DNA of 64,000 bases from a virus (IMGVR_UViG_3300034073_002585:32001-96000); one strand, 5' to 3'; shown: positions 26,058-41,741, numbered from the stretch's first letter. The notes: a model not told the origin generated them from the sequence alone. A program made the numbers and translations.

Positions 26058-26477
26058 ATGCGCCTTGTTACCGCCCCTGAAGCAGCACGCGAGCTGTACA
26101 TCTCGATAGGCCTGCTCCACTACTGGATTCGAACGGGTCGACTCCAGAAGCACCCATACCCGCTAGCTGCGTCTACAGCAAAGGTCCGCAAGAAGACGGT
26201 GTCTCATCGACGCTTCATGGTTGATATAGACCAGGTCCGCAAACTCAGGCGGGCAGATGCTGAAGACCAGGTAAAACTTTTAAACAGTGATAAAAGATTG
26301 CTGCGGCCGCAAGAAGTCGCGAAGATTCTTGGCGTCACAGTTCAGAGGGTCTACCAGTGGGTGGCCCGCTATGAGCTAACCAAGTACAAAACAGGTTCTG
26401 ATACTTGCTACCTCGTTGATGGTGATGAGCTAGCTGACGCCCTTGAAGCAAATGGACTTGGTTATTTGGTGAAGTAG
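26058..26477 (+). CDS. tandem HTH DNA-binding protein
   Basis: Two HTH_17-like motifs; TACACT 6 nt before ATG 26058. Confidence 0.7.
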   Translation: MRLVTAPEAARELYISIGLLHYWIRTGRLQKHPYPLAASTAKVRKKTVSHRRFMVDIDQVRKLRRADAEDQVKLLNSDKRLLRPQEVAKILGVTVQRVYQWVARYELTKYKTGSDTCYLVDGDELADALEANGLGYLVK

Positions 26478-26995: not shown

Positions 26996-27298
26996 ATGCG
27001 CTCACTGGAAGTACACGTATTCGAAACCGACACGGACCTAGATAACGCATTGCGTGCTGGAATCGTGTTACCTGAACAAATAGCAAGAACCGCATGCGTT
27101 GAATGCGGCCAACCCATCTGCTTCTCGAGCACTCCGACCTTCTGTCCATTCGTACTCATCATTGACGAGAACGACCAAGACTGGACCTTGTGCGAAGACT
27201 GCGCTAGCCCAATCATTGACTACGTAGACGCCTTCTTTCCACCTGTAGTGAAAAGTCACTTCGAACCTCTCGACACTGACGAATACGATTTCTTTTAG
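26996..27298 (+). CDS. hypothetical zinc-binding protein
   Basis: CxxC...CxxC; start uncertain. Confidence 0.55.
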   Translation: MRSLEVHVFETDTDLDNALRAGIVLPEQIARTACVECGQPICFSSTPTFCPFVLIIDENDQDWTLCEDCASPIIDYVDAFFPPVVKSHFEPLDTDEYDFF

Positions 27299-27392
27299 TT
27301 GTATTTATTTTTTGTTCGACACGCCTAAAAAGATTTCATAATGTCTGCCTACCCTGCTATTGTTTAGGTAACAACCAAAGGGAGGTGACAAA

Positions 27393-27674
27393 TTGACAAA
27401 GCGAATCTACTGGGCAGACATCATTGAGTGCGAGGACCAGCTATTCGAGAGCCTTGACGCTCTTATCGCAGTAGCAACTGAAACACCAGAGTGTTTCTAT
27501 TCTTACTGGGACCACAACAACGAAATTGTTAGCGTTGGAGTAAACGACAACATGGAGTTGGAAATCACCTATTCATCTATCGAAGACGAAGATGAGGAAG
27601 GCAACGACATTCGAGTAGACACAACTGACACCTTCAGGTACAAACACTCTAAAGAACTAGCAGTTCTGGTTTAG
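27393..27674 (+). CDS. acidic early protein
   Basis: GGGAGG RBS; very D/E rich. Confidence 0.7.
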   Translation: MTKRIYWADIIECEDQLFESLDALIAVATETPECFYSYWDHNNEIVSVGVNDNMELEITYSSIEDEDEEGNDIRVDTTDTFRYKHSKELAVLV

Positions 27675-27820
27675 TTCTCCCGACCTGAGCAAGTCTATAA
27701 ACTGCTCACTTTTTCTATTCAGACTCTGTATTTATTTTTTGTCCAACACGCCGATAAAAAGTTTGACGATAAGACAGAATCTGGTAAAGTTTGATTACCA
27801 CAAAGAAAGGGGTTACCCAA

Positions 27821-28339
27821 ATGGGTATGGATGTTTATGGGAAGAACCCAGCCAGCGAGGTTGGACACTACTTCCGCCGTAATGTATGGGGATGGCATCC
27901 TCTATGGGAGTTCGTAGAGAATGTTCACCCAGAGATTGCCGAGTTGGTAGAACACGCACACTCAAACGATGGGGATGGGCTTGATGCCGAGAACTCATCT
28001 GCTCTCGCAAAACTTCTAATGGAAGATTACGAGTCTGGCAAAGTTTCCGAGTATGTAGTGGAACGCAACAAGGCTATCTCCGAAATGGAAATGCCTACTT
28101 GTCACATTTGCGAGGGAACAGGTATTCGTTCCGACCAACTCGGAATCGAGAATGGGCAAACAGAAAAAGAGTTGCCTGCCGACATAGCCATAATTGTTGG
28201 TCGCACCAAGGGTTGGTGTAATGGCTGTAATGGCGTTGGCAAGACTGAGCCTTGGGAAGCAAGTTACTACCTTGAGCCTGAAGATGTAAAAGAGTTTGCC
28301 GAGTTCTTAGCAGAGTGCGGTGGCTTTGAGATTTGCTAA
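27821..28339 (+). CDS. early protein with DnaJ-type zinc finger
   Basis: CHICEGTG and CNGCNGVG; AAAGGGG RBS. Confidence 0.75.
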   Translation: MGMDVYGKNPASEVGHYFRRNVWGWHPLWEFVENVHPEIAELVEHAHSNDGDGLDAENSSALAKLLMEDYESGKVSEYVVERNKAISEMEMPTCHICEGTGIRSDQLGIENGQTEKELPADIAIIVGRTKGWCNGCNGVGKTEPWEASYYLEPEDVKEFAEFLAECGGFEIC

Positions 28340-28571
28340 CCCTAGCAACAGCCTGAGTATGCTGTAAAAACTTACTACCTCACCTGAGCCAAGTGAAGGA
28401 TAAACTGGCTCATTTTTTACTTCAATAGTTGTATTTATTTTTTGTTTAGTTAGAGCAGGGCGTTACCAATTTGTTATCAAACTTTTTACGAAACAATTTG
28501 ACATGATGTAAAAACTCTGATTTACTTTCCTTGTAGCAAACGCTACGACACAACACGAAAGGGGTAGCCAA

Positions 28572-29183
28572 ATGGCAACCACAGCAACACCAAAGATTGT
28601 AGGCAAGGCACTTTACCTTGAACTAATCGCAGACCCAAGCCTAGATTCAGAAAAGGCTCGTTCAATTCTTGGTTGGTATGGCGACAAGGCAACCAAGCAG
28701 ATTATCGTATTTCCGCAGTATCAGGACGACACAGGTAAAGTCTTTGAGGCGGTAGTTATGAGCAGGACGATTTCCGAATACTCGCCGAGGGCACAATGGG
28801 ACAGCACTTACTTGGACAGAGCCCTAGCCAAAGCAAAAGACCTAGAATCCACGAATCACATGGGATACACAGACTACCCAAACTATTCAAGAACAGAGTG
28901 GGATTCTGTAACAGAGCGAGAGAAGTATGAGGCACGCAAGCGTTCCCTTGAACTAATCCTACGCCGAGAGTTGCTTGGCACAACTTACGAGGGTGAGGGT
29001 GACGAGCGTAAGTCTGTCGCTAAGCAGGGTTGGGTAGTTCGTGACGACAAGCCATTCTCGGTAGAAGTTACTGACCAAGACCTACTTGAACTTCACAGGG
29101 ATTGGAAAACACCACAGGCGGTTATTCGCCGAATCAACAAAGTTCGTGATTCACTTGACAAGTTTCCTAAGAAACTAGCATAA
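28572..29183 (+). CDS. hypothetical early protein
   Basis: TTGACA promoter at about 28498; AAAGGGG RBS. Confidence 0.75.
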   Translation: MATTATPKIVGKALYLELIADPSLDSEKARSILGWYGDKATKQIIVFPQYQDDTGKVFEAVVMSRTISEYSPRAQWDSTYLDRALAKAKDLESTNHMGYTDYPNYSRTEWDSVTEREKYEARKRSLELILRRELLGTTYEGEGDERKSVAKQGWVVRDDKPFSVEVTDQDLLELHRDWKTPQAVIRRINKVRDSLDKFPKKLA

Positions 29184-29222
29184 TTCAAGTAGATACTGAC
29201 ACAACAGGAAAAGAGGGACACC

Positions 29223-30284
29223 ATGTATCTAAGAACAGAGGTCGCAGAGGCGACAGCACCAACACTAGCCACACTTGATTTTGACAAGTTGGTTGAACAA
29301 CTAAGCACCAGCCACACAAGTTCGGCGTTCGGAGTTACGACTTCCGTTCTTGACGACTTGCTACCAACAGAGGGTCGAGCCATGCTACGAACCAGAGGCG
29401 GTAAGGCAACCACTAAACTAGAGAGTGGAGAATCTGCCGAGGCAGAGCCAGTTCGACTAGAGGAAACTATGGAAACCACAACAGCCCTAGAGGGTGAGGA
29501 ATCCTACGCACGACCTAATGGCGACCTTTACTATGGTCGCAAGTGGGGCGACAATACAGATGTAGAAGTTCTACGCAAAGCCAGAGAAGCAGGGCAGTAT
29601 GTAATGCTTTATGGAGTTCCAGGAACAGGTAAGACTGCTATGGTCGAGGCTTCATTCCCAGACGAACTTTACACACTTCTCGGTTCTGGCGATACAGAGG
29701 TTGCCGACCTAGTTGGTTCGTATGTTCAGACCCCAAGCGGAAGTTTCGAGTGGGTGGACGGAGTTTTGACAAAAGCGGCTTCCGAGGGCAAGGTTCTATT
29801 CATAGACGAGGTTGGACTGATTGACCCAAAGGTTATGGCAGTTGTCTATGGACTTATGGACGGAAGAAAAGAGTTGGTTATCACAGCCAACCCAGAGCGA
29901 GGTGTCGTCAAAGCGCAAGAGGGCTTTTATGTTGTTTCGGCAACTAACCCAAATGTCGCAGGTGTCCGATTGAGCGAAGCCCTACTATCCCGATTCACCA
30001 TTCAGGCAGAACTGACGACTGATTGGAACTTGGCACGCAAACTTGGCGTTCCACAGACAGCAGTTGTCGCCAGCCAGAATCTCGCAAAGAAAATGGAAAA
30101 TGGCGAAACTTCATGGTCGCCACAAATGCGAGAACTACTAGCGTTTCGTGACCTAGCCAAATTGTTTGGGACGAAGTGGGCAGTTCAAAACTTGCTTGCT
30201 TCCGCACCAGAGATTGACAGACCAGTCGCTTCTGATGTCTTTACCAGAGTATTCGGAGAGGCGATTCTGCCAGCCAAGATTTAG
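29223..30284 (+). CDS. MoxR/CbbQ-type AAA+ ATPase
   Basis: GVPGTGKT Walker A, FIDE Walker B, ATNP, ALLSRF. Confidence 0.9.
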   Translation: MYLRTEVAEATAPTLATLDFDKLVEQLSTSHTSSAFGVTTSVLDDLLPTEGRAMLRTRGGKATTKLESGESAEAEPVRLEETMETTTALEGEESYARPNGDLYYGRKWGDNTDVEVLRKAREAGQYVMLYGVPGTGKTAMVEASFPDELYTLLGSGDTEVADLVGSYVQTPSGSFEWVDGVLTKAASEGKVLFIDEVGLIDPKVMAVVYGLMDGRKELVITANPERGVVKAQEGFYVVSATNPNVAGVRLSEALLSRFTIQAELTTDWNLARKLGVPQTAVVASQNLAKKMENGETSWSPQMRELLAFRDLAKLFGTKWAVQNLLASAPEIDRPVASDVFTRVFGEAILPAKI

Positions 30285-30409
30285 TGGTAGTTGTGTCCCA
30301 CTAAAAAGTGGGGAGTGTCAAAAAAGTTTTTTTGGAAATGGACTTGACACTCCCCCAAAATCATGGTTCAATTAGACATAACAAAAAATGCCAGATGAAA
30401 GGGAAGCAA

Positions 30410-32263
30410 ATGGCACACTACAAAGTAAAAGGGAAGTCAAGACTTACCAGTCGCACAGCGACAACCAACCCAGAGTGGTTGGCAGTATGTTCACAGATTG
30501 GTCGCCTAGTCAATGATTGGTCGTGGCGTTCAGACCTAGTTGTCTATGGTGGCGAAGATTCTGCCGAGGGTAGAGCAGTCGCCGCTTTTTATTCAGAGAT
30601 TGCCGAGATTGAGATAAACATTCCAAAGGCTTTCGGCGAAGCAACACCAGCAGATTTTGTTGGCGACATGACCCAGAGGGCAACTCACTACGAGTTCCCA
30701 ATGGTTACAGGAATCCTATTCCACGAAGCCCTACACGCACGCCACACGAATTGGGACATTCCAAGATTGCTAGAGGCACTTGACCCGACAGAGAGCCAAG
30801 CCTTTATGTTGCTAGAGGAATCCCGTATCGAAGCAAAGGGTGTCAAAGAGCGACCAGAGAATCGCCTATTCCTACGCACTTCTGCCCTAGACATGGCACT
30901 AGAGGAAGTTACCAGCCAGACCCTAGAGAACTTGGGTAGCGACCTATGGCAGACAGCACACCTAGCAGGGTTGGCTATCGCCAGAGTAGATTCTGGCGTG
31001 TTAGAGGTTGCCGACATTCAAGAGATTTACAACTCGGTGGTTTCGGTTATGGGCAAGGAATTGTTTGACGAACTACGCAAAGTTTGGATTGAGTTTCAGG
31101 CACTAGGCGTTCCACAGATTGAGCGAGCGATTGAGTTGGCTAAGAAGTGGGTTGAGTTGCTACGACAGGCAGACCCAGAGGGCGAGCCTAGTGGTGGTGG
31201 ACACGCTTTTGAGGAATCAGAGGAATCTGACGAGGGCGAGGGCGAGGGCGAATCTGGCGAGGGCAAGTCTGACACCATGAAGCAGATGATTGCCAAGTTG
31301 TCGGAATCTGCCTTGACCACAGAACTAAACGCCAATGATTCTCTCGCAGACCTAGAAACCAAAGAAAAGTGGGACGAGGAATCAAAGGCACGCCAGAGCC
31401 AAGCCAAGCAGACCAACCAGCGCAAGCAACAAGCCAAAGAGGTTTTTCACAAGCAACACAACCAAGAGGGCGGTAATGGTTCAGGTTCAAGAGTGGACAC
31501 TCGCAGACAGCCCACAGGCGCAGAGCGAGCCAGCGCAGTCCAGATTGCCAAGTCACTTGAAAAGGCAAAGTATCGTGAGCGTTCGGTTCACACACGCAAG
31601 ACCCAAGCCCCAATGGGCAAACTGATTATGCGAAACGCAATTCAGAACAAGGCTATGGAAGCACAAGGCAAGCGTGGCGACTTGCCAGCGTGGAAGTCCA
31701 AGACCCGAAAGCACACAGACGACCCAACGCTAAGGCTCGGTGTCATGGTGGACATTTCAGGTTCTATGGGTTCGGCTATGGAATCTATGGGACAGACAGC
31801 GTGGATTATGAGCGAGGCAGGTCGCAGGATTCAGGCAGAAACAGCCATGATTTATTACGGAAGCGGAATCTTCCCGACCTTGAAGCGTGGACAGCGTTTG
31901 AGCGAGGTGACTATCTATACCGCACCAGACGGAACAGAAAAGTTTGGCGAGGCGTTTGAAGCACTTGACGGAGAACTTGGACTGACTTTCGGTGACGGAG
32001 TTCGTATGTTGGTCGTGGTGTCGGACGGAAACTACACGCCGAGCCAGACGGACAGAGCCAAGCAGATTCTCGCAGAGTGCCGACAGAGTGGCGTGGCGGT
32101 TCTATGGATTACACCGAGAGGTTGCTACTCGTATGGTGCGAAAGACATTCTCGGAAGTTCGGCGTGGGGAGTTCACTTGGACGACCTAGACACCGCCGAG
32201 ATTGCGAGGCTTGTCGGCAAGTCGGCGAGCGAAGCGTTAGCAAAGGTTGGTTCGCAGATGTAG
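30410..32263 (+). CDS. VWA domain protein with N-terminal HExxH domain (CobT-like AAA partner)
   Basis: FHEALH, EESRIE, acidic linker, DISGSM MIDAS, VSDG. Confidence 0.85.
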   Translation: MAHYKVKGKSRLTSRTATTNPEWLAVCSQIGRLVNDWSWRSDLVVYGGEDSAEGRAVAAFYSEIAEIEINIPKAFGEATPADFVGDMTQRATHYEFPMVTGILFHEALHARHTNWDIPRLLEALDPTESQAFMLLEESRIEAKGVKERPENRLFLRTSALDMALEEVTSQTLENLGSDLWQTAHLAGLAIARVDSGVLEVADIQEIYNSVVSVMGKELFDELRKVWIEFQALGVPQIERAIELAKKWVELLRQADPEGEPSGGGHAFEESEESDEGEGEGESGEGKSDTMKQMIAKLSESALTTELNANDSLADLETKEKWDEESKARQSQAKQTNQRKQQAKEVFHKQHNQEGGNGSGSRVDTRRQPTGAERASAVQIAKSLEKAKYRERSVHTRKTQAPMGKLIMRNAIQNKAMEAQGKRGDLPAWKSKTRKHTDDPTLRLGVMVDISGSMGSAMESMGQTAWIMSEAGRRIQAETAMIYYGSGIFPTLKRGQRLSEVTIYTAPDGTEKFGEAFEALDGELGLTFGDGVRMLVVVSDGNYTPSQTDRAKQILAECRQSGVAVLWITPRGCYSYGAKDILGSSAWGVHLDDLDTAEIARLVGKSASEALAKVGSQM

Positions 32264-32552
32264 TCGAGCCACAACGGATTGCCTAACCGAGAGGTTGAGC
32301 GAAAGGTGATTACCCCCCTTTATCACTACTAGTTCCCAAACGGATAGGTAATAGAAGCCCCCACAGCCAAGTGCTTCCCCCAGTCTTGGTTCGTGGGGGT
32401 TTCGTCTTTTGACCCAGACCATTTTTTGACTGAAGGTGTGTATTTATTTTTTGTTACGACTTTTGAAAAAAGACTTGTTTTGTTTGCGAAACCTAGTAGG
32501 ATTGGAGTATCCAATCAGGGACGAAATAGAAGTAGTCCCAAAAAGGGGAGAG

Positions 32553-32891
32553 ATGACGAAAGTCACCAAAGCCCAGCCAGTCGGCTCAAAGACTGACACG
32601 AAGGTAACTCGTAAGTTCGTTACCAAACTCAACGAGTTCGTTGAGGTTCGTTCTCTACAAAACCTCTACAAGAAGTTGGCTGACGAGGGTCGTGCCGAAA
32701 TCTTCAACGAGGTGGGGGAAGCCGAGCAGGTGCTAATCCACAATGGCGTTCGGGTTGCGATTATCAGTAAGGTAACCAAGCCCGACATTGACAAGAAACT
32801 TCTCGCCGAGAAGTATCCAGAGGCTTTTGCCGCTTGCTCAATCACTCGTGACGAGTTCCACATCAAGACAGCAACTCCGACCAAGAGATAA
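32553..32891 (+). CDS. hypothetical early protein (paralog of 40109..40474)
   Basis: IDKKLLAEKYPEAF versus IDEEKLAKDFPEAY. Confidence 0.7.
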   Translation: MTKVTKAQPVGSKTDTKVTRKFVTKLNEFVEVRSLQNLYKKLADEGRAEIFNEVGEAEQVLIHNGVRVAIISKVTKPDIDKKLLAEKYPEAFAACSITRDEFHIKTATPTKR

Positions 32892-33040
32892 CCAGAGAGG
32901 GGGTTGGGCGAAAGCCCAGCCCCTTTTCTCAAAATGCCGTTGTATTTATTTTTTGTATGACTTTTGACTCGCCGAGGCGTGCCGTAGAAAATGTCAGAGG
33001 TTAGTAGTAAATTGGTAGTAACAAGAAAGGGGGTTCTCAA

Positions 33041-33382
33041 ATGAGAGAGCCAGTAGCACTAGACCCAGTAGGCGTGGCAGGACTTAGCCTCACCATGATT
33101 GGAGTTCTCGTTGAGCAGTATGTAAGAGAGGGTTACGCCGACCCAACCATGTATCGGGCATTGAAAGGGGCAGGCGAACTAGCGGAACACCTACGGGAGT
33201 GGGTTATGTCAGAAGCACCAGACGAAACGGAACTGCTTGACGGCGTGACCGACTTACTTATGAACCTAGAACTTACCGCTATGGAGTGTGGCGAGGTCGT
33301 AAACCGAATCATTGACGAACACGGCTTGCCTGTTGATAAAAAGTCGTGGACACGGCTTGACATTGACGGCACGCAGGACTAA
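33041..33382 (+). CDS. hypothetical early protein
   Basis: AAAGGGGG RBS. Confidence 0.7.
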   Translation: MREPVALDPVGVAGLSLTMIGVLVEQYVREGYADPTMYRALKGAGELAEHLREWVMSEAPDETELLDGVTDLLMNLELTAMECGEVVNRIIDEHGLPVDKKSWTRLDIDGTQD

Positions 33383-33392
33383 GGTGGTAGGT

Positions 33393-33686
33393 ATGAAGTT
33401 CTATCAAGCACTCGGCGAGGTAATCAGAGAGCAACGGCTTGCCAAAGAGATGACCCTTCGTGATGTAGCCCAGACGGGTTATGTTTCTATGGGACACCTG
33501 TCAGATGTGGAGTGTGGACGGAAAGAGGGTTCTTCCCAGTTCATTCACGCAGTTGCTAACGGCATAGGCATAGAGCCTCACGAACTAATTTTGAAGGCAG
33601 GTTTCAGAATGGCAGACCTGACCATTCCAGATACACCAGAAAAACTTTTATTGGGCGATTCGCAATTCGAGACAGCCAGACTCTAG
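33393..33686 (+). CDS. XRE-family regulator, ClgR-like
   Basis: LGEVIREQR....TLRDVA....VSMGHLSDVECGRKEGSS. Confidence 0.75.
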   Translation: MKFYQALGEVIREQRLAKEMTLRDVAQTGYVSMGHLSDVECGRKEGSSQFIHAVANGIGIEPHELILKAGFRMADLTIPDTPEKLLLGDSQFETARL

Positions 33687-33873
33687 AAGTCTGAAACCCA
33701 AAGACCCTAGCGAGTGGAAACGCTAGGGTTTTTGCATTTCCAAATTTTCTTGTTTGGCGTGTATTTATTTTTTGTTTGGCTTCCAATCGCTTTTGATGAA
33801 AATGTCTGCCAATCCTGATAGAGTTTTCTTGTTGGGAGTTCCAAGTGTGAACTACAACAGAAAGGGGTAGCAG

Positions 33874-34221
33874 ATGAGCAAGTCTGCTTTTTTGATTCGA
33901 GAGGATTTTTCTTTCGAGCGTTTGGAGTTAGAGGGCAACACCTTGAAGGTGTTACAGAGTGCCGTTGATGGCTTGATTCAACCTGTTGATTTGAGCGACA
34001 GCCTGACTGTCTGGGTAAATGAAGAGGGGCTATTCAGAAATGATTTTGATGTGAACCTTTTTGCTACTGCTATTTATCACCAAGCATTTCCGACTGCGGA
34101 TAACCCACTTGTAGGCCCTGCCGTCTTTACAGGTGGTTCTGATGATGAGGGCAACACCCTCGGATTGAGCGAGCAGATGATTGCCAACCTAGCGACATGG
34201 GCTCTGGCTCTCGCCAAGTAA
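33874..34221 (+). CDS. DUF3846-like protein
   Basis: LQSAVDGLIQ...VNEEG....N..AT....LVG.AVFTG. Confidence 0.75.
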   Translation: MSKSAFLIREDFSFERLELEGNTLKVLQSAVDGLIQPVDLSDSLTVWVNEEGLFRNDFDVNLFATAIYHQAFPTADNPLVGPAVFTGGSDDEGNTLGLSEQMIANLATWALALAK

Positions 34222-34389
34222 CACAGAGGTAAGACTGCCCCCGCTTCGGCGGGGGTTTTCTTTTTTCCGTTTTTTGTGCGGGTAGCGTGTATTTATTTTT
34301 TGTATGAAGTTTTTATGAAATGCCGACAATAAACTTGATAATGTCAGAGTGCCGTGCTTTACTAGAGGTATCCAAGAAAAGGAGAGGGA

Positions 34390-34632
34390 ATGTTCAGTAA
34401 CTATCCAGAGGGTTCAATGCGAGGCTCGGGTATCTATTCGGTTGAGGTGTCTTATGACGCTTTCGATTGCGAGAACGAGGAGTGCGGACAGCACAACGAG
34501 GCTGGCGATACTGCGACTGATGACTGGGGACACTACACGATTGAGTGCGAGTTCTGCGGAGTGACCTACACAGAGAGCAGTCTGGCACAGGACAAAGATG
34601 ATTACTACGCCGACTATTCCGAGGACAGGTAG
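34390..34632 (+). CDS. small acidic zinc-ribbon protein
   Basis: C....C and CxxC motifs; AAGGAG RBS. Confidence 0.7.
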   Translation: MFSNYPEGSMRGSGIYSVEVSYDAFDCENEECGQHNEAGDTATDDWGHYTIECEFCGVTYTESSLAQDKDDYYADYSEDR

Positions 34633-34640
34633 GGGCTAAA

Positions 34641-34781
34641 ATGGCAACGCAATACGAATACGAATGTCGCTCTTGTGGAAGTGCGGTTTGGCTAGACCAA
34701 GAACAGCACGACCACTACGAGAGCAACAAAGAAAAGGGAAGCGGGTTCACAATGCCAAAGTGCGCCGACTGCTGGAAATAG
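34641..34781 (+). CDS. small zinc-ribbon protein (46 aa)
   Basis: Manual translation with CRSC...CADC. Confidence 0.6.
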   Translation: MATQYEYECRSCGSAVWLDQEQHDHYESNKEKGSGFTMPKCADCWK

Positions 34782-34792
34782 GGAGAGGAAAA

Positions 34793-34993
34793 ATGACAAC
34801 AACGACCCGCTACTGCTGGAACTGCGAGGAAGAACTAAACGCCGAGAACACAGGTTCTTATGGTGGGTTCGATTCAAGCAACCACTACTATTCAAGTATC
34901 TATGGCGGAGATGGCGACACAGCGCCGTTCACAAAGTGCGACTCTTGTTTTGATGCCGACAACGACAGATATCTAGAGAGCCTTTACGAGTAG
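34793..34993 (+). CDS. small zinc-ribbon protein
   Basis: CWNC...CDSC; GAGAGG RBS. Confidence 0.65.
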   Translation: MTTTTRYCWNCEEELNAENTGSYGGFDSSNHYYSSIYGGDGDTAPFTKCDSCFDADNDRYLESLYE

Positions 34994-35206
34994 GCAATAC
35001 CAAAGATTTACTGCCCAATAATTCTGTGCGGGACACAGAGTTGGGCAGTTTTTTATTGCCGATTTTTGGCGACTATTTTTTGTTCTTCGAGTGTATTTAT
35101 TTTTTGTTCCAGGCTGCCGAAACTTTTTACTAATGATTTGACTTCGCCGACCAAACCTAGTATCTTTGTAAGTGTCAGAAAGACACAGAGTGAAAGGAAT
35201 CCAGAA

Positions 35207-35476
35207 ATGGAAACGACAAAAGAAGTAATCAAGGCTAGACTCATGGAGATTGAGGAGCGCCAAAAAGAACTGGCACAGAGTCGCCGAGAGATGGCACTAG
35301 ACATGGCTGTTGAAGTTGGGACAGACGAGCTAGTTGGTATCAACCTTGACTCACTATCAAAGTGGGCAAGAAGAATTAGGAAAGTCAATACAGAGATGAA
35401 AGTTTTGGCAGACGAGCGCCGTTGGTTGAGAGAGAGCAGACGCCGACTCAACCCTTGCGAGTGCGACTGCCACTAA
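35207..35476 (+). CDS. coiled-coil early protein
   Basis: GAAAGGA RBS, ATG 35207. Confidence 0.65.
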   Translation: METTKEVIKARLMEIEERQKELAQSRREMALDMAVEVGTDELVGINLDSLSKWARRIRKVNTEMKVLADERRWLRESRRRLNPCECDCH

Positions 35477-35672
35477 GGTTAGTCCCCCCTAACCCCCGCC
35501 CCCGTCAGAGAAATCTGGCGGGGGTTTTCTTTTTGTCGTTCGTTGAATTTTTCATTGAGAGCTGTACAAAAAATAAATACAAGTAGGTAGCACAATAATT
35601 TTTGCTGCCGTGTTTCTTTTGTTTTTCTTCTTTTTACTGCTATACTTGATGTAATCAAGAAAGGGGGACACA

Positions 35673-35972
35673 ATGTCCACAAGCACCACCACCGCCCGCA
35701 ACGAGTTTCTTTCCGCCGTATGCGAGCCACTACGCACCATCACTAGCGAGAACCTCACCAAGAGCGCATGGGTAGCTGGAGTTGAAATCATTGCTCTGGC
35801 AAATCGCCTTGCCGACCTTGAGGTTTCCGTAGAGCTTCTAGAGAACGAAATCAAGCTAGGCAACCTCCACTTCGCCGTTGATGGTCACAACTGGAGCGAC
35901 TACGCAAAGGTTTACAACAACAACTTTGTGGAACTGTGCCAGTTGCTACGAGCAAGAAGGCTTGCTAAGTAG
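35673..35972 (+). CDS. hypothetical early protein
   Basis: TGCTATACT promoter; AAAGGGGG RBS. Confidence 0.7.
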   Translation: MSTSTTTARNEFLSAVCEPLRTITSENLTKSAWVAGVEIIALANRLADLEVSVELLENEIKLGNLHFAVDGHNWSDYAKVYNNNFVELCQLLRARRLAK

Positions 35973-36151
35973 TATCCAAAACACCAAGCCCCCTGTTTCG
36001 GCAGGGGGTTTCTTTTTGCCGTGACGAGAAAGTCTCCCTCTTTCTGTGTGTATTTATTTTTTGTCCAGGACTTCAACATGCCGACAACTTTTTGTCAAAA
36101 TGTCTCTTATGGGTGCTATGCTCTAAGTAACCAAAGAAAGGGGACAACCAA

Positions 36152-36328
36152 ATGGTTGGAGTAGGGCAGCTACTAAGTAGCTTGAATTTGAATGTGATTG
36201 CGAGCGCCGTAGAAGGCGAGACAACAGTTCCTTGGACTCTTTTGTTAGAAGATGAGGAATTCCTAAAGATAGCAAAATACGCCAACACCTTACAAGAGGT
36301 TGTTGACTGGGTAAACGAGAACTACTAG
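36152..36328 (+). CDS. small early protein (58 aa)
   Basis: Manual translation; AAAGGGG RBS. Confidence 0.6.
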   Translation: MVGVGQLLSSLNLNVIASAVEGETTVPWTLLLEDEEFLKIAKYANTLQEVVDWVNENY

Positions 36329-36335
36329 GGGGTGA

Positions 36336-36539
36336 ATGATGAGCGTAAAGTATCCAGAGATTGAAGTTCAACTTTCGGGAAATGATGGAAATGCTTATGC
36401 GATTATGGGGGCGATACAGAAAGCCCTACGCCGAGCAGAGGTTCCACAACACGAAATTGAGCAATACCTAAACCAATCCATGAGCGGAGACTATGACAAC
36501 CTTTTGCGGGTTGCCATGAATTGGGTGACAGTTCACTAA
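36336..36539 (+). CDS. conserved small phage protein
   Basis: L.G.DGNAYAIMG...SGDYDNLL pattern. Confidence 0.75.
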   Translation: MMSVKYPEIEVQLSGNDGNAYAIMGAIQKALRRAEVPQHEIEQYLNQSMSGDYDNLLRVAMNWVTVH

Positions 36540-36704
36540 TCAAACCAAAGACAAACCCTCGCAAAGTTGCGGGGGTTTTTCTTTTTCCCGTGATAATTTC
36601 GGCGCTCGCCGTATGTATTTATTTTTTGTCTAGCTCATCAGCAACAGATTTGCGGTTTATGTGTGTGCCGTGTTAGGGTATGAGTATCAAGAAAGGAGTT
36701 CCCT

Positions 36705-37091
36705 ATGGGAGCAAGAACAGTTTGGGAGATTCGGACTTATTCCGACAGGCCCTCTATTTATCTATACAGCCACTGGGGTGGCGACACTAAGTGGATTGAC
36801 ACAGTTCAAGCCTTAGAGCAAGCTAGATTCCGCTGGGATGACCCGAGTTATGGAGCAAGGATTTTCATTAGCCAGATTGTTGGAAGCCAATGGGACCTAG
36901 AAACAGGATTCGGTATCACTGCTGGAGATTCTGGAGAAGTTCCATTCGAGGAGAGCTATTTCAATGCGGTAATAGATTTCTCATCAAAGACAGTGACCCT
37001 AGGAGAGCACCTATACACTTTCGAGGAGTTTGTGTCCGCCGATGACATTACTGAACAGCTTGGCAATGAGTTCTGGGAGGTTAGCGCCTAA
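36705..37091 (+). CDS. hypothetical early protein
   Basis: MGAR...YLYSHWGG...RWDDPSY..RI. Confidence 0.75.
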   Translation: MGARTVWEIRTYSDRPSIYLYSHWGGDTKWIDTVQALEQARFRWDDPSYGARIFISQIVGSQWDLETGFGITAGDSGEVPFEESYFNAVIDFSSKTVTLGEHLYTFEEFVSADDITEQLGNEFWEVSA

Positions 37092-37375
37092 TGGGTAATC
37101 TACAAGCTCAAGAAATGGCGGCGCTCACTGACCTTGACATAGCGCTAACTTGGCACCTGCGGTCGAACCACTATCCACCCGTGCCGTTGACAATGCTTGA
37201 ACCATGTAAACAAGCGATTGACGCTTACTGGGAAGATGACCTAGATAGGCAGATTGACTTGAATGGAAGTTTCTACAGGGGCGAACCTTTTGCCCCTGCT
37301 AGAGAGATTATTATCGCTCATCACCTAGACGCTTGGTGTGAGGGCGAGGAAGAGGAGTTCGACGATGCCGATTAA
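37091..37375 (+). CDS. hypothetical early protein
   Basis: WHLRSNHYPPVP...HHLDAW. Confidence 0.7.
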   Translation: MGNLQAQEMAALTDLDIALTWHLRSNHYPPVPLTMLEPCKQAIDAYWEDDLDRQIDLNGSFYRGEPFAPAREIIIAHHLDAWCEGEEEEFDDAD

Positions 37376-37763
37376 GGATAAGGAGAAATACAATGCTTAC
37401 ATGCGGGAATACAACAACAGAACCTATGCCCTTAGGTGTGACAAGTTCCGAGCCCAATTAGGCAACAAGTGCACAAAGTGCGAGAGCACAGATAGCCTAA
37501 ATTTCAGTGGCACCACCCCGCTAGGTAAGTCTTTTGATTTGTCGCGCCGAATGACTAGTGCACCAATGAAAGACTTGCAAGAGCTTTTTGACAACAGCAA
37601 CTACACGCTATTGTGCAACAAGTGCCTAGCAAAGCAAACCAAAGGCGTAGAGCATGGAGGAGGTATTTCTGGCGTGCGGAATTGTAAGTGCGATTTGTGT
37701 AAAGCTAAGAAAGCCGAATACATGCGGAGCTACATGAAGAAGAAACGAGCTACAATAGACTAG
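37365..37763 (+). CDS. HNH-like zinc-binding protein (possibly degenerate)
   Basis: LGNKCTKC...LLCNKC...CKCDLC; the canonical DH is missing. Confidence 0.55.
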   Translation: MPIKDKEKYNAYMREYNNRTYALRCDKFRAQLGNKCTKCESTDSLNFSGTTPLGKSFDLSRRMTSAPMKDLQELFDNSNYTLLCNKCLAKQTKGVEHGGGISGVRNCKCDLCKAKKAEYMRSYMKKKRATID

Positions 37764-38014
37764 CCAAAGCAATGTCGCTTGGCTATTGCTAGAGATTTTG
37801 TCCCCCCTTTCTCTCTAGCATGCGGGTTACAACTTTCCCCCCTTTAGTTGTAACCCGCTTTTTCTTTTTTGTCGCCTGCTTTTTCTCTTCCGTTGAGTGT
37901 ATTTATTTTTTGTTCAACTTTAGCCACGCCGTCAAATAAAGTGCTTGACTAATTTGACAGGACTGGTAGGCTTATTACATCAGCCAAAAGGTTGGTAAAA
38001 GGAAAGGGGACAAA

Positions 38015-38230
38015 ATGTTCACACTAAGAAGGTTCGCAGGTGCAGTAATCACCATGCCAATCGTGTTCGGTATCTATGCGGTTATCTACTTTGGTCTAGG
38101 TCTAGTAGCAAACAGCTACATGAGTATTGGACTATTCACCCAAAACCTATACGCCGTTGGATTCGGCTGGGTGATTGCGGTTACATTCGCTAAGCAGTTC
38201 TTCAACCTAATCGAAAAGCTAGGAGAGTAA
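38015..38230 (+). CDS. small membrane protein
   Basis: Two TM helices; AAAGGGG RBS. Confidence 0.7.
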   Translation: MFTLRRFAGAVITMPIVFGIYAVIYFGLGLVANSYMSIGLFTQNLYAVGFGWVIAVTFAKQFFNLIEKLGE

Positions 38231-38232
38231 TA

Positions 38233-38385
38233 ATGGAAAACATCATTGAAGCAGTGCTACTAATCGGAGTAGCGTTCATTCCAGTAGGAGCGTTCTTGCT
38301 AGGGTTCGTAGTCGCCAAGATTTCTAATGGTGGTGGTAACCCGAAGGGTCGTCACGCCAAAGGTCGTGGCAGACACGCCAAGTAA
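38233..38385 (+). CDS. small membrane protein with GRHAK repeats (50 aa)
   Basis: Manual translation; AGGAG RBS. Confidence 0.6.
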   Translation: MENIIEAVLLIGVAFIPVGAFLLGFVVAKISNGGGNPKGRHAKGRGRHAK

Positions 38386-38566
38386 GTTCCACCGAAGCCC
38401 CTCGCAGAAATGTGGGGGGTTTCTTTTTTTGCGGGCAGCCTCTTATTTTTTTGTTTTTAGGTTGTATTTATTTTTTGTCTAACTTCAGACACACCTGCCG
38501 ACTTGATTTGCGATTACGGGTAGGAGGCTCTAAGCTATTACTAAGAACAAACAGGGAGGGGCAGAA

Positions 38567-38815
38567 ATGCTAAACAGACCAGACCAAGAGGCAGAGCTAA
38601 TCTTCGCTATGGTGATGAAGCTAGGCGGAGAGCACAACTACTCAGAGCACACCAAGGCTACGATTTGGGCAGAGTGTAATCGTAACCCTAAGCTACGCAA
38701 CCTAGCGTTGCAGTATCTAGCTGGGTCAAGCAACAGGGCAGACCTAAACCTGCACCGACTACACACCGAAATTGTGGAAGTATTCTTCCCTGAAGTAAAG
38801 GAGTTGATTGGCTAA
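38567..38815 (+). CDS. hypothetical early protein
   Basis: GGGAGGGG RBS. Confidence 0.65.
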   Translation: MLNRPDQEAELIFAMVMKLGGEHNYSEHTKATIWAECNRNPKLRNLALQYLAGSSNRADLNLHRLHTEIVEVFFPEVKELIG

Positions 38816-38957
38816 TGGCTATCACGATTACAGAACTTACGACTTGCTACCAATGCGAGCGACCAATTATGGCACCGAAAGATTCAGTTCACCCGCTATG
38901 CGAAATTTGTGACCAGGGTTTTGACGAGTGGTTCACTAAGCAGTTAGGTATGTTCAA

Positions 38958-39272
38958 GTGATTGAGTTTGAGCAGAAGTATTCAACGCCGAGAGCACAAA
39001 GGCAGTATGAGCTTGAAACTCTAATCAAGCACTATGAAGTTGAGCGTGCCGAGAACATTAGGCGACTATTGTTTTCGATTGGAGTTGGTTTTGCTTATGT
39101 TCTACTTATGGGAGGAGTTATAGGTTATGGAACTTTTGCTGGAGGCTATGCCGTATTAGGTTGGCTGTCAGTAATTACAGTTGGGCTATTCATAGCTGGC
39201 GAGTTTGTGAAAGTCAATGCCGAGCTTAGTCGCCCAAACCTCAACCACCCAGAAAGATTTATACAGAGTTAG
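38958..39272 (+). CDS. membrane protein
   Basis: Two TM helices. Confidence 0.65.
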   Translation: MIEFEQKYSTPRAQRQYELETLIKHYEVERAENIRRLLFSIGVGFAYVLLMGGVIGYGTFAGGYAVLGWLSVITVGLFIAGEFVKVNAELSRPNLNHPERFIQS

Positions 39273-39494
39273 TCCCCCCTAACACCCCCCCACGCCCCCG
39301 CTAGGTTTCTGAACCTTTCCTAGCGGGGGTTTTCTTTTACCTCGAAAGCACCTCGAATTTTTTTGCGGGAGGGTGTATTTATTTTTTGTCTAGTTGTTGC
39401 CGACACGATTGGTAAAAGGATTTGACAAATCTAAATAAGGTGCTAGGCTTATTACATCAGCCAAGGTGGTTGATACAAAGAAAAGGGGTAAAAA

Positions 39495-39791
39495 GTGAAC
39501 AGCAGGACTTACGAGAACATTCAGGGGATTGGAAGCTGGGTAGCTTTCCTAGCTACTGGAGTGGCTTTCCCATTCAGCTTGGAGTATGCGGGATTGATTG
39601 ACGCAATGAGCGCAGACCTATACACCGAGGGTAGGGCGATGATGTTCCTAATCATTGTGGTCAGCATTTCAATTCTGGCAGTAACCCTAGCGGTCAAGGC
39701 TGGACTATCTTGGGCAGAATACAAGTGGTATTACCGCCAAGACCTAGCACAGAAGCTACACCGCCTAGCAGACAGGATTGCCAAGCGATGA
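39495..39791 (+). CDS. membrane protein
   Basis: TTGACA promoter, AAAGGGG RBS, TM helices. Confidence 0.65.
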   Translation: MNSRTYENIQGIGSWVAFLATGVAFPFSLEYAGLIDAMSADLYTEGRAMMFLIIVVSISILAVTLAVKAGLSWAEYKWYYRQDLAQKLHRLADRIAKR

Positions 39792-40108
39792 AGCAACTAG
39801 CCAAGAGGGTTGAACCCTTGGTGCTGGAAGTTCTGGCAGTTGTCGTCTTGCCGAGGATTGCTGGAGCAGTAGCCAAGAGGTTAGCCAAAACTAAATAAGA
39901 AGTGAGGAAGCCCCCGCCAAGTGCGGGGGTTTTTCTTTTGCTTGCCGTTGTGATTTTTGCTGTTGTTGGGTGTATTTATTTTTTGTTCAAACTTTCAACA
40001 CGATTTTGAAATAGATTTGACAACTACTAATCCACCCCCTAGACTGATTACATCAGTTCAGAAGTAGAGCTGATAACCGAAACTAGATAACTACAAAGGG
40101 GAGACGAA

Positions 40109-40474
40109 ATGTCCACAATTACTAAAGCAGTAGCAAAGGCTGAGCAGGCACAGGTTGCCGAAGGCAAAGCCACCAAGCGAATCGTAGATGCGGTCAAGGA
40201 GCTAGTAGAGCTTAGGGCTGAAATCGCAGAGCTTGAGAAGCGTAAGAACTCACTTACCGCAGAGCTAGAGCAGGTGTTCGGTGTAGACAAAGAAGCCAAG
40301 ACTTCAAAGCACACCACACTTACCTACCACGGTGTAGATGTTGTTCGCTACGAATGGCGCAAGCGTAAAGGGATTGACGAGGAGAAACTAGCCAAGGACT
40401 TCCCAGAAGCTTACGAAGCTTGCTACAAGGCAGACAAGACCGTATACGGCTTGATAGTGTCACTGTTCAAGTAA
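40109..40474 (+). CDS. hypothetical early protein (paralog of 32553..32891)
   Basis: TTGACA...TAGACT promoter; AAAGGGG RBS. Confidence 0.75.
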   Translation: MSTITKAVAKAEQAQVAEGKATKRIVDAVKELVELRAEIAELEKRKNSLTAELEQVFGVDKEAKTSKHTTLTYHGVDVVRYEWRKRKGIDEEKLAKDFPEAYEACYKADKTVYGLIVSLFK

Positions 40475-40480
40475 ACCGAA

Positions 40481-40513
40481 AGACCCCTAGTCAGAAATGG
40501 CTAGGGGTTTTTT
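40481..40513 (+). terminator. intrinsic terminator closing the early region
   Basis: CCCCTAG..CTAGGGG stem plus T run; similar terminators near 32900, 33700, 34240, 35500, 35990, 36555, 38400, 39300 and 39910. Confidence 0.8.
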
Positions 40514-41243
40514 CATTTCTGGCACAGTGCCGTAGTTAGTTAGAGGCTATACAAAAAATAAATACAGGTATGCCGTTCGAGTATTCTGCCGTGATTGCTC
40601 ATTGAGTCAGGTGAAGTTGTTATGCCGTAGATGGTTATACCCCCATAGCCCTAACCATTGAGGGGGGTGTAGCTGTCCCCTACAAGCCTTAGAGCCCGTA
40701 GCAGACCCACTCCCCAGACATAAGTAGGGCAAAGTCTCTAACCCACCACCTAAGTCTGTCTGCCGTAAAGCTGATAAATGCCCCTAAGAAGTCATAGAAG
40801 CTCTTTAAAGGGCATTGGCACTCTTATCTATGTCCCAGACAGGTAAAAGCTTTCTAGGAGCAACCTAGACCCTTATAGCTACAACTTATGAACTCACTCT
40901 TATTCGATGTCATAGCTAGACCTTGACTAGAAGCATTAGCTAGTTGTCTAGGCACTCTTTGACAGGTTTTTTCAATACCCCCTAGACAAGACAAGGAGTT
41001 TGTCACGACATTCTTGGCAGGCATACCCCCTAGGGTATGGAAACAATCTGGAAGGCACCATTTCACAACCGCTGCCCTCTCACCCGCCAAAAGCAGTCAA
41101 CGCTAAGGTACTAAATCTTCCGCTACGGACACCCCCTCTTTTTTGAAAAACTACCCCACCCCCCTTTCTAAAATGCCCTAAAAATTTCCAAAAATTTTTT
41201 AAAAAAATAAACGCCCCTATTTTTACCCCTTAAAATAGAATCC

Positions 41244-41741
41244 ATGTCTCGAAGAACAGCACGTGGACAACAGCTTCCTCCTCACGAGGTCGAGCTCTTG
41301 AACACACTAAAAGGCGAGCAGCGCATTGAGCGCGTAGCGGCGTTATTTAACGCGGGATGGTCACTTCAGACCATTGGGGATTCACTACTGCCAAAGCACC
41401 CACGCTCCACTGTACGCTCTTGGGTTCTTCGAGCTAGCGGGCTCAACACACTAGACGCCCCTATTCCAACACCAAAATTAAAAACACCAGAAGGCGGATA
41501 CCAAAAGGTAAAACCCGAGTCTCCAGGAATCCCGCAAGGCGACCTTGAGCAAATCCGCTACCTGGCTCCTCTGGCGAGAACGTACCGTTCACGTATGTCC
41601 TCAACGTCAGCATACGCCGTTGCCAACCAGCGTCTAACCGACCTGTGCAAGCGGCTCCATGAAAATAATGTCTCAGTGCGTGAACTGGCTGAGGCTGCGG
41701 GCGTAACATACCGAGCTATGTACAAGAGGCTCTTCCTCTAG
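41244..41741 (+). CDS. double-HTH DNA-binding protein
   Basis: GWSLQTIG and VSVRELAEAAGVTYRAM; paralogous to 43362..43940. Confidence 0.7.
   Translation: MSRRTARGQQLPPHEVELLNTLKGEQRIERVAALFNAGWSLQTIGDSLLPKHPRSTVRSWVLRASGLNTLDAPIPTPKLKTPEGGYQKVKPESPGIPQGDLEQIRYLAPLARTYRSRMSSTSAYAVANQRLTDLCKRLHENNVSVRELAEAAGVTYRAMYKRLFL

What the first reader, a model, noticed from the sequence alone, without database searches (positions are those of the whole stretch)
27300..40566. Early region built of modular units, each marked by an invariant 16-mer
Seen: 16 exact copies of TGTATTTATTTTTTGT (14 forward, 2 inverted), all intergenic and none noticed elsewhere in the window. The unit is terminator - 16-mer - about 20-55 nt - sigma70-type promoter - SD - one to three ORFs. 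Flanks are not conserved, orientation can flip (35566), and the last inverted copy (40551) closes the region. Perfect identity argues against a simple UP element. Inference: a binding site for a phage protein (operator, or DNA ejection/organisation site), or a recombination anchor for cassette exchange.
Basis: partly seen in the sequence, partly recalled or inferred. Interest (0 to 1): 0.8.

Follow-up and report, generated by a model that had tools for sequence, protein, structure and literature searches.

The report
Private upstream box on early cassettes
An uncultured 154-kb phage of actinobacteria puts the same 16-letter DNA box about seven helical turns upstream of each of its roughly 15 small early-gene promoters; related phages keep the layout but each uses its own version of the box, which points to an unidentified sequence-specific protein that switches the whole set of genes together.

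Summary
There are 16 exact copies of TGTATTTATTTTTTGT (14 forward, 2 inverted), all intergenic and all within 13.3 kb. The 154-kb genome has no other copy, and chance predicts none.

1. Every relative examined has the same array but its own letter-perfect version of the box, in the same register (GTATCCACTTTTT, TAGTTATTTTTTCT, GTATTCGTTTTTT and others). The version does not follow the phylogeny of neighbouring genes.
2. The box has no partner at a fixed distance. Its distance to the downstream sigma70-type promoter comes in steps of about 10.5 bp, which puts the box centre near -61, -72, -82 and -92. Its distance to the upstream terminator shows no such periodicity.
3. Inverted copies occupy the same slot in front of forward genes.
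4. Cassette order is shuffled between genomes.
5. The array is almost free of palindromes, and this depletion starts exactly at the first box.

Best reading (about 0.5): an upstream regulatory site for a very specific DNA-binding protein that acts on the adjacent promoter. Its repeats probably also give homology for cassette shuffling, as in T4-type PeSL cassettes. The protein is not identified, and I tested and rejected the obvious HTH candidates.

The scan has noted the same element before in related phages.

The parts
27300..27315 (+). box copy 1, one base after the stop codon of the conserved zinc-finger gene 26996-27298. It heads the unit with gene 27393-27674.
27727..27742 (+). box copy 2. 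Promoter TTGACG 27763-27768 / TAAAGT 27785-27790; gene 27821-28339.
28430..28445 (+). box copy 3. Promoter TTGACA 28498-28503 / TTTACT 28521-28526. Genes 28572-29183, 29223-30284 (AAA ATPase) and 30308-32263 (CobT/VWA-like).
32439..32454 (+). box copy 4; gene 32553-32891.
32941..32956 (+). box copy 5. Genes 33041-33382 and 33312-33686; the second is an XRE-type HTH present in most arrays.
33760..33775 (+). box copy 6; gene 33874-34221 (DUF3846).
34288..34303 (+). box copy 7, after terminator 34237-34256. Genes 34390-34632, 34641-34781 and 34793-34993.
35092..35107 (+). box copy 8. Promoter TTGACT 35138-35143 / TATCTT 35161-35166; gene 35207-35476.
35566..35581 (-). box copy 9, inverted. It sits in the usual slot between terminator 35498-35525 and the promoter (-10 TATACT 35642-35647) of + strand gene 35673-35972.
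36049..36064 (+). box copy 10, after terminator 35986-36011. Genes 36152-36328 and 36336-36539.
36614..36629 (+). box copy 11, after terminator 36553-36578. Genes 36705-37091, 37091-37375 and 37365-37763.
37898..37913 (+). box copy 12. Promoter TTGACT 37945-37950 / TAGGCT 37967-37972. Genes 38015-38230 and 38233-38385.
38463..38478 (+). box copy 13, after terminator 38394-38423. Genes 38567-38815, 38815-38961 and 38958-39272.
39374..39389 (+). box copy 14. Promoter TTGACA 39422-39427 / TAGGCT 39444-39449; gene 39495-39791.
39971..39986 (+). box copy 15, after terminator 39906-39934. Promoter TTGACA 40017-40022 / TAGACT 40040-40045; gene 40109-40474.
40551..40566 (-). box copy 16, inverted. It closes the array after the last terminator (about 40480-40512) and is followed by a 680-nt stretch without ORFs (40567-41243).
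27261..40400 (.). Palindrome-poor zone that coincides with the array. There is no 6-bp palindrome at all between 27261 and 32327.
26058..26477 (+). Protein with two tandem HTH_17 domains just upstream of the array. Tested as the box reader and not supported.
26996..27298 (+). Conserved acidic four-cysteine protein whose stop codon directly precedes the first box in most relatives with an array.

Best explanation
The 16-mer is an upstream regulatory site, not part of the core promoter and not a terminator. A highly sequence-specific DNA-binding protein, not yet identified, binds it and acts on the neighbouring host-type (sigma70/SigA-like) promoter from the same face of the helix. The site lies one of several whole helical turns upstream, with its centre near -61, -72, -82 or -92. 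This is the geometry used by class I activators that touch the flexible alpha C-terminal domain of RNA polymerase. A-tracts at about -42 and -52 lie between box and promoter. Because every cassette carries the identical site, one protein can switch the whole early array on (or off) together.

The array is the fast-evolving, palindrome-free block of small genes that is probably exposed first in infection. The repeated box-plus-promoter segments also give the short homologies at which cassettes are lost, gained and reordered.

Shown: the copies, their invariance, the genome-specific versions, the phasing, the tolerance of either orientation, the shuffling, and the palindrome depletion. Inferred: protein binding, the direction of the effect (activation rather than repression), the early timing, and the start sites.
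For: 1. Invariance and restriction to the array.
2. The same architecture recurs in at least 11 related genomes, with a version private to each genome in the same register. Examples: G003 GGTATTTATTTTTTCTG x15, G004 TGTATTCGTTTTTTC x41, G006 TAGTTATTTTTTCTG x25, and G007/L216 GTATCCACTTTTT x15-18. No foreign version occurs in any genome.
3. There are one-step variants. The version is decoupled from the identity of the neighbouring gene across the metagenome loci around the 172-aa gene homologue where a box could be called.
4. No element lies at a fixed distance, but the box-to-promoter distance is periodic. The period is 10.25-11 bp. Against a +-5 bp jitter null, p is at most 0.0005 for best-scoring promoters (n = 73-131). 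For 44 strictly defined promoters, p is 0.003 (-35) and 0.0003 (-10). The phase is similar in each genome.
5. The terminator-to-box distance is not periodic (p = 0.16).
6. Inverted copies (1 in G000, about 8 in G004) sit in the same slot before + strand genes that have strong promoters.
7. A-tracts peak at +19, +29.5 and +40 from the T-run, which is upstream of the -35.
8. No T7-type RNA polymerase or sigma region 2 gene was found.
9. Precedents exist for tens of invariant protein sites in actinophages: stoperators (PMC9283540; PMC6550527) and the Cluster O 17-bp repeat (PMC4351075).
Against: No reader protein was found.
- The tandem-HTH_17 protein next to the array has nearly the same recognition helices in L276 (TAGTTA box) and L289 (G000 box).
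- The in-array XRE protein has the same helix in G000 and G006, which have different boxes.
- The small HTH_17 protein has an invariant helix in genomes carrying three different box versions (G000/G003, G004, G007).

Promoters and start sites are predictions only, so the -61/-72/-82/-92 positions could be off by 1-3 bp. How 15-41 sites change in concert when the version changes is unexplained.
Confidence: 0.5

Rival explanations
1. The primary role is as a recombination anchor. The box is the short identical sequence at which cassettes are excised, inserted and reordered, in the manner of PeSL or integron cassettes. Its identity within a genome results from copying during these events.
For: - Cassette order differs between genomes that share 65-87% identical proteins in the syntenic genes at the start of the array.
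- Homology blocks end 9-38 nt before a box and begin about 57-90 nt after one, in both partners.
- The G000 unit 27300-27726 is missing in G006 and L216, which have two tandem boxes at that place.
- No genome holds a foreign version.
- PeSL is a precedent (PMC2839356).
- A small serine recombinase is encoded at G000:22566-23006.
Against: - It does not explain the helical phasing with the promoter.
- Copying would homogenise the flanks too, but identity stops sharply at 16 bp.
- The box has no dyad symmetry, as serine or tyrosine recombinase sites do.
- Inverted boxes are not accompanied by inverted genes.
- The recombinase is also present in DSL-LC01, which has no such box.
Confidence: 0.15
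2. The box is an intrinsic DNA element read directly by host RNA polymerase or a general host protein. It would be a displaced UP-like site for the alpha C-terminal domain (the T6 run), or bent DNA, with no dedicated regulator.
For: - The T-run is the only part kept in all versions.
- The G000 version resembles the AT-rich distal UP consensus (from my own knowledge of the rrnB P1 UP element, not checked here).
- Phasing and tolerance of either orientation fit an alpha-CTD or bend mechanism.
- No phage protein co-varies with the box.
Against: - UP elements and bends are degenerate, not letter-perfect over 13-17 bp.
- Versions with GC-rich centres (GTATCCAC, GTATTCG) are equally invariant.
- Separate A-tracts already occupy -42 and -52.
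- The upstream T-tract at -24 is 2.5 turns away, so it is out of phase for curvature.
Confidence: 0.15
3. The box is a polar transcription roadblock or backup terminator. It would be like the stoperators of Cluster A mycobacteriophages, insulating each unit from read-through.
For: The site is asymmetric, present in many copies and intergenic. It lies downstream of terminators and mostly points with transcription. The first copy follows a gene that has no terminator, and it is doubled there in G006, L216 and L257. See for the stoperator definition.
Against: - Stoperators lose function when reversed, but here about a fifth of the G004 copies and one G000 copy are reversed in front of forward genes.
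- The distance to the terminator is unconstrained, while the distance to the promoter is phased.
- The boxes are confined to one array rather than spread over the genome.
- No tyrosine integrase was found.
Confidence: 0.06
4. The box is a promoter, terminator or RNA signal for an unrecognised phage RNA polymerase or RNA-binding factor.
For: Letter-perfect repeats are typical of single-subunit RNA polymerase promoters. The negative search for PF00940 had an uninformative control. Several large proteins remain unannotated.
Against: Inverted copies serve forward genes. Every unit has its own host-type promoter downstream. The box lies between terminator and promoter, the least transcribed place. 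Rfam finds nothing.
Confidence: 0.04

Closest known systems
PeSL (promoter-early stem-loop) cassettes of T4-type phages RB49 and phi1 (Arbiol et al. 2010, PMC2839356)
   Same: Intergenic composites of a stem-loop terminator and a strong host-type early promoter with AT-rich DNA upstream. They are repeated tens of times in a hyperplastic block of small ORFan genes, and are associated with insertion, deletion and reordering of genes (here).
   Different: In a PeSL the repeated part is the promoter and stem-loop themselves. Here the promoters and hairpins differ from unit to unit. The invariant part is a separate 13-17-bp box placed whole helical turns upstream, private to each genome and usable in both orientations. 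The host is an actinobacterium, and the phage is unrelated to T4.
Operator/stoperator sites of Cluster A mycobacteriophages (L5 gp71, TipsytheTRex repressor; PMC9283540, PMC6550527)
   Same: An asymmetric 13-bp class of site, with 20-30 or more near-identical copies per actinophage genome in short intergenic spaces. The motif version differs between related phages and is read by a monomer with two DNA-binding domains.
   Different: Stoperators are spread over the whole genome. They work only in one orientation relative to transcription, block elongation, and belong to temperate phages with an immunity repressor. Here the sites are confined to one array, tolerate inversion and are phased to promoters. 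No integrase or matching repressor was found.
Class I activator sites (CRP at -61.5, -71.5, -82.5, -92.5) and displaced UP elements of E. coli promoters (textbook knowledge, not checked in a paper here)
   Same: Upstream sites that work only at whole-turn displacements from the promoter, with an alpha-CTD-type A-tract between site and -35. The same series of positions is inferred here.
   Different: No activator is known here, the site is asymmetric, the start sites are only predicted, and the polymerase is actinobacterial.
17-bp repeat of Cluster O mycobacteriophages (Corndog; PMC4351075)
   Same: More than 30 invariant copies of a short repeat per actinophage genome, many of them intergenic. 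The function is unknown, and one gene gain or loss is flanked by the repeat.
   Different: The Cluster O repeat is a perfect 7-bp inverted repeat spread over the whole genome, partly inside genes. The box here is asymmetric and strictly in promoter-upstream slots of one array.
Invariant early-promoter word of the related Actinomycetia phage DSL-LC01 (OQ999401)
   Same: The syntenic block of small genes has 16 copies of one exact word, each after a GC-rich hairpin.
   Different: There the word, CTAAAGATGTTATA(A/G)T, contains the -10 hexamer itself. There is no separate upstream box.

Membership tests
PeSL regulatory cassettes | Intergenic composite of a sigma70-like early promoter and a stem-loop terminator | tested here: met
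   Hairpin plus T-run upstream and a TTGACA/TAnnnT promoter downstream of each box
PeSL regulatory cassettes | Concentrated in a hyperplastic region, immediately upstream of ORFans | tested here: met
   No Pfam family above the curated cut-off in 19 of 20 cassette proteins scanned. Many have no homologue in relatives.
PeSL regulatory cassettes | Recombination between copies causes gene shuffling and mini-circles | tested here: inconclusive
   Order is shuffled and one unit is present or absent between boxes. Crossover points are not resolved, and circles cannot be tested.
PeSL regulatory cassettes | The repeated sequence is the promoter/stem-loop itself, in T4-type phages | tested here: not met
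   Promoters and hairpins vary. The invariant part is a separate upstream box. The phage is related to actinophages.
Stoperators (Cluster A mycobacteriophages) | Asymmetric site of about 13 bp in many near-identical copies in short intergenic spaces | tested here: met
Stoperators (Cluster A mycobacteriophages) | Orientation strictly tied to the direction of transcription | tested here: not met
   Inverted copies precede + strand genes in G000 (35566) and G004 (about 8 of 41)
Stoperators (Cluster A mycobacteriophages) | Sites distributed over early and late operons of a temperate phage with a cognate immunity repressor | tested here: not met
   All copies lie in one 13-kb array. No tyrosine integrase. 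No protein co-varies with the box.
UP element | AT-rich, degenerate sequence directly upstream of the -35 (-40 to -60) | tested here: not met
   The box is invariant, includes GC-containing versions, and its centre lies at about -61 to -116. Separate A-tracts occupy about -42 and -52.
Class I activator site | Site centres on one helix face at whole-turn steps upstream of the promoter | tested here: met
   Period 10.25-11 bp, p <= 0.003; modes near -72, -82, -92 and -61 using predicted promoters
Class I activator site | A known activator protein that binds the site and needs the alpha C-terminal domain | not testable with these tools
   No reader was identified. Candidates were rejected by covariation.
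Phage RNA polymerase promoter | Phage-encoded polymerase, and a directional site in front of the gene it serves | tested here: not met
   No PF00940 hit (weak control). Inverted copies serve forward genes.

The most novel reading that the evidence does not exclude
The box is a private address code. It is read at the moment of infection by a protein already present, either delivered by the virion or taken from the host. That protein drives immediate expression of a first-entering, restriction-site-free 'landing' block of about 9% of the genome, comparable to the first-step-transfer DNA of T5. The same code decides which phages can swap cassettes. Box versions would then be compatibility groups that change in single-letter steps at all sites together, through a homogenising mechanism not yet known.
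Probability: 0.15. Interest if true: 0.85.

Novelty: new variant of a known kind. Interest (0 to 1): 0.6.

Why it matters
Three points:
- It is a clean natural example of one short DNA address controlling a whole set of exchangeable genes, in an abundant but uncultured group of lake phages of actinobacteria.
- Three features are not part of the described PeSL, stoperator or Cluster O systems: the box versions are letter-perfect within a genome, they change in single steps between genomes without following phylogeny, and they are locked to the helical face of the promoter. Together they pose a sharp question about how 15-41 sites and their reader change together.
- The coincident palindrome-free zone suggests a defence-evasion logic for the DNA that enters first.

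Tried and rejected
1. Exact 16-mer in IMG/VR and in 185,579 species genomes. Only single chance hits in AT-rich DNA, no multi-copy record and no actinobacterium in the listed rows.
2. Near-identical phages in GenBank: none. The cultured relative Pumpernickel has no such repeat in its first 33 kb.
3. A promoter element with a fixed partner: no conserved column outside the box.
4. Phage RNA polymerase or sigma factor: none found. There are two WhiB genes only.
5. Curvature from phased T-tracts: the upstream T-tract is 2.5 turns away.
6. Reader candidates:
   - HTH165 (41244) and the sigma-r4-like protein (43362) are conserved in phages without the box.
   - The tandem HTH_17 protein (26058) looked promising: 32-36% identity to G006 against 65-87% for most neighbouring genes. 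It failed because L276 and L289 have near-identical helices but different boxes.
   - The in-array XRE protein and the small HTH_17 protein do not co-vary either.
   - The zinc-finger protein before the first box is acidic and unlikely to bind DNA.
   - PDB sequence searches gave only weak Xis/RacA-type hits.
7. Known RNA families in the array: none.
8. Exact crossover mapping at the G000 extra unit: ambiguous, because box plus about 50 nt is duplicated on both sides.
Full report
OBSERVATION. An exact search finds 16 copies of TGTATTTATTTTTTGT at the coordinates given, 14 on the + strand and 2 on the - strand. None of 100 dinucleotide-preserving shuffles gave a match. With up to three mismatches only two more sites appear. 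One is a 1-mismatch copy inside a gene at 24714. The window is bases 32001-96000 of a 154,192-bp IMG/VR virus record, and the whole record holds these 16 copies and no others. Apart from a terminal 12-mer tandem array and collagen-like repeats, this is the most over-represented word of the genome. All copies are intergenic, and each is followed 91-142 nt later by the start of one to three small ORFs with AAGGGG-type ribosome sites. Upstream lies a hairpin plus T-run. Downstream lies a TTGACA-like/TAnnnT promoter.

WHAT THE PHAGE IS. The portal protein is 70% identical to that of Actinomycetia phage DSL-LC01 from Dishui Lake. It is about 60% identical to those of large Microbacterium phages such as Pumpernickel. 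Two WhiB genes fit an actinobacterial host. I found no T7-type RNA polymerase, no sigma region 2 and no tyrosine integrase. There is one small serine recombinase. Of 20 cassette proteins scanned, only DUF3846 passes Pfam's cut-off. An XRE-type HTH gives a hit below the cut-off.

THE BOX IS A FAMILY FEATURE WITH PRIVATE VERSIONS. Hundreds of uncultured relatives exist. In every relative whose syntenic region I could read, the same architecture is present, but with a different letter-perfect box in the same register:
- G003: GGTATTTATTTTTTCTG, 15 copies
- G008: cGTATTTATTTTTTCT, 10 or more copies
- G004 and L262: TGTATTCGTTTTTTC (G004 has 41 copies, 10 of them inverted)
- L252 and L257: GTATTCATTTTTT
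- G006: TAGTTATTTTTTCTG, 25 copies, the last one inverted as in G000
- G007, L216 and L255: GTATCCACTTTTT(T), 15-18 copies
- L260: CTATTTTTCATTTTT

No genome contains a copy of another genome's version. At orthologous junctions the flanking leader is conserved while the box differs, for example after the CobT-like gene (TAGGATTGGAGTATCCAATCAGG).

I read the slot in front of the 172-aa gene homologue in 80 metagenome loci, and a box could be called at about half of them. Further versions appear there, including the one-step variant TGTGTTTATTTTTTGT. The version does not follow the identity of the gene. The exact G000 16-mer occurs in loci with 63-69% identity, while the closest loci (83-85%) carry TAGTTATTTTTTCT. 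DSL-LC01 has instead 16 copies of a word that contains the -10 hexamer. Pumpernickel has no such repeat.

LINK TO THE PROMOTER. I aligned 134 units on the T-run. No column outside positions -8 to +7 reaches 0.25 bit, except a weak T-tract at about -24. The box therefore has no partner at a fixed distance. The distance to the best downstream promoter is nevertheless strongly periodic. The -35 hexamer starts at about +35, +46 and +57 from the first T of the run. The best period is 10.75-11 bp, with p at most 0.0005 against a null that jitters each distance by up to 5 bp. With a strict, selection-free promoter definition (at most one mismatch to TTGACA, 16-18 bp spacer, TAnnnT; 44 promoters), the period is 9.5-10.25 bp, with p = 0.003 for the -35 and p = 0.0003 for the -10. 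The phase is similar in each genome.

If transcription starts 7 nt after the -10 hexamer, the box centre lies near -72 (the mode), -82, -92, -61 and -103. A-tracts peak at +19, +29.5 and +40 from the T-run, which is about -52 and -42 of the commonest promoters. The distance from the upstream hairpin to the box (19-51 nt) shows no significant periodicity (p = 0.16). The box is therefore coupled to the promoter and not to the terminator.

ORIENTATION. The inverted G000 copy at 35566 lies in the normal slot. It sits between a terminator and the promoter of the + strand gene 35673-35972. In G004 about eight inverted copies likewise precede + strand genes that have strong promoters such as TTGACT-17-TACAAT, at similar distances. 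An element that works in both orientations cannot be a promoter, a terminator, an RNA signal or a polar roadblock of the stoperator type. Stoperators lose function when reversed (PMC9283540).

CASSETTE MOBILITY. The genes at the start of the array (172 aa, 203 aa, ATPase, CobT-like) are syntenic in all relatives. The cassettes after them are reordered, and many are missing. Nucleotide homology blocks between genomes run from about 57-90 nt after a box to 9-38 nt before the next box. The G000 unit 27300-27726 is absent from G006 and L216, which have two tandem boxes 17-18 bp apart at that place. Box plus about 50 nt is duplicated on both sides of the unit, as expected for loss or gain by homologous exchange, but the crossover point cannot be fixed. 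This matches the behaviour of PeSL cassettes (PMC2839356).

PALINDROME-FREE ZONE.

| Palindrome size | Array, per kb | Rest of genome, per kb | Markov obs/exp, array vs rest |
|---|---|---|---|
| 6 bp | 1.7 | 12.9 | 0.38 vs 0.99 |
| 4 bp | 19 | 50 | 0.38 vs 0.88 |

The last 6-bp palindrome lies at 27260, 40 nt before the first box, and the next is at 32328. The arrays of G003, G004, G006 and G007 show the same depletion of 6-bp palindromes, four- to fifteen-fold. This is what one expects of DNA that meets host restriction enzymes before any protection is expressed. To my knowledge (not checked in a paper here), the first-step-transfer DNA of T5 likewise lacks EcoRI sites. The result supports an early, first-exposed role for the array but does not prove it.

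The proteins at 41244 and 43362 are conserved in phages without the box. The protein at 26058-26477 has two tandem HTH_17 domains and is unusually divergent: 32-36% identity to G006, where most neighbouring genes are 65-87% identical. A two-domain monomer reading an asymmetric site has a precedent. The test failed, however. L276 (TAGTTA box) and L289 (G000 box) have almost identical recognition helices, and a CCAC-box genome has a protein just as similar to the G000 protein as L289's is. The XRE protein encoded inside most arrays and the small HTH_17 protein at 21919 do not co-vary either. The acidic zinc-finger protein whose stop codon abuts the first box is conserved but is unlikely to bind DNA. 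The exact 16-mer gave only chance hits in species genomes.

VERDICT. The best-supported reading (about 0.5) is an upstream regulatory site for a highly specific DNA-binding protein. The protein would act on each cassette promoter from whole-turn positions, in class I activator geometry. The repeated regulatory segments would secondarily serve cassette shuffling. The rivals are:
- recombination anchor as the primary role (0.15)
- an intrinsic UP-like or bent element (0.15)
- a polar roadblock (0.06)
- a signal for an unknown polymerase or RNA factor (0.04)

Compared with PeSLs, stoperators and the Cluster O repeat, this is a new variant of a known kind. The scan had already noted the same element in related phages, and this report adds an independent test on this genome. 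Two things remain unexplained: how all copies change version together, and what reads them.

Noticed in passing
window 27261-40400; also the arrays of G003, G004, G006 and G007: The cassette array is nearly free of 4- and 6-bp palindromes: 6-mers at 1.7 per kb against 12.9 per kb elsewhere, and none at all for 5 kb after the first box. The edge coincides with the first box.
   Followed up: yes
G000 bases 1-124 and 153976-154192 (outside the window): The 'direct terminal repeat' of the record is a 124-nt overlap inside a tandem array of the 12-mer CCCACCTTACTT at both contig ends. It may be an assembly closure inside a repeat rather than a true terminal repeat.
   Followed up: partly
L208 (DSL-LC01, OQ999401) 24793-43316: The published relative has 16 copies of CTAAAGATGTTATA(A/G)T, which contains the -10 hexamer. 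Each follows a GC-rich hairpin and is followed by the invariant ribosome site ACGACGAAAGGACA.
   Followed up: partly
window 27316-40600, 8-35 nt after most boxes: A second, looser word lies between box and promoter in G000 and in relatives: GACACGCCG, or GCCG(A/T). 16 of the 30 forward TGCCGT copies in the genome lie in window 32-44 kb, five of them around the last box.
   Followed up: partly
window 37975-38000, 39452-39480, 40048-40080; also in G003 and G006 units: Several unit leaders share a hairpin right after the -10, of the form TTACATCAGCC...GGTTGAT(A). It may be an mRNA 5' stem-loop.
   Followed up: no
window 40567-41243: A 680-nt stretch without ORFs follows the closing inverted box. 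Its last 150 nt (C-runs, then very AT-rich) are 76-80% conserved in G006 and G007. It lies upstream of an HTH gene and the terminase region, so it may hold a packaging or late-promoter signal.
   Followed up: no
L255, L256, L260, L263, upstream of the zinc-finger gene; window 24753 and 28480: Another repeated word, AACTTTTAACGAA or AACTTCCAACGAA, occurs 4-7 times in the block before the array in several relatives. In G000 it lies just upstream of the -35 in two units.
   Followed up: partly
G006 4718/4735; L216 7412/7430; L257 8371/8392: At the first slot of the array some relatives carry two tandem boxes 17-21 bp apart, with no gene between them.
   Followed up: partly
window 44163-47128: A catalase-peroxidase-type gene (PF00141, 729 aa) and a heme oxygenase gene (PF01126) lie side by side just before a tRNA-Asn and the terminase.
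   Followed up: no
window 26678-26956: A conserved cysteine-rich 92-aa protein (CxC...CxxC...CxxC motifs) is found in six of the seven array genomes compared, and weakly in Pumpernickel. Its function is unknown.
   Followed up: no
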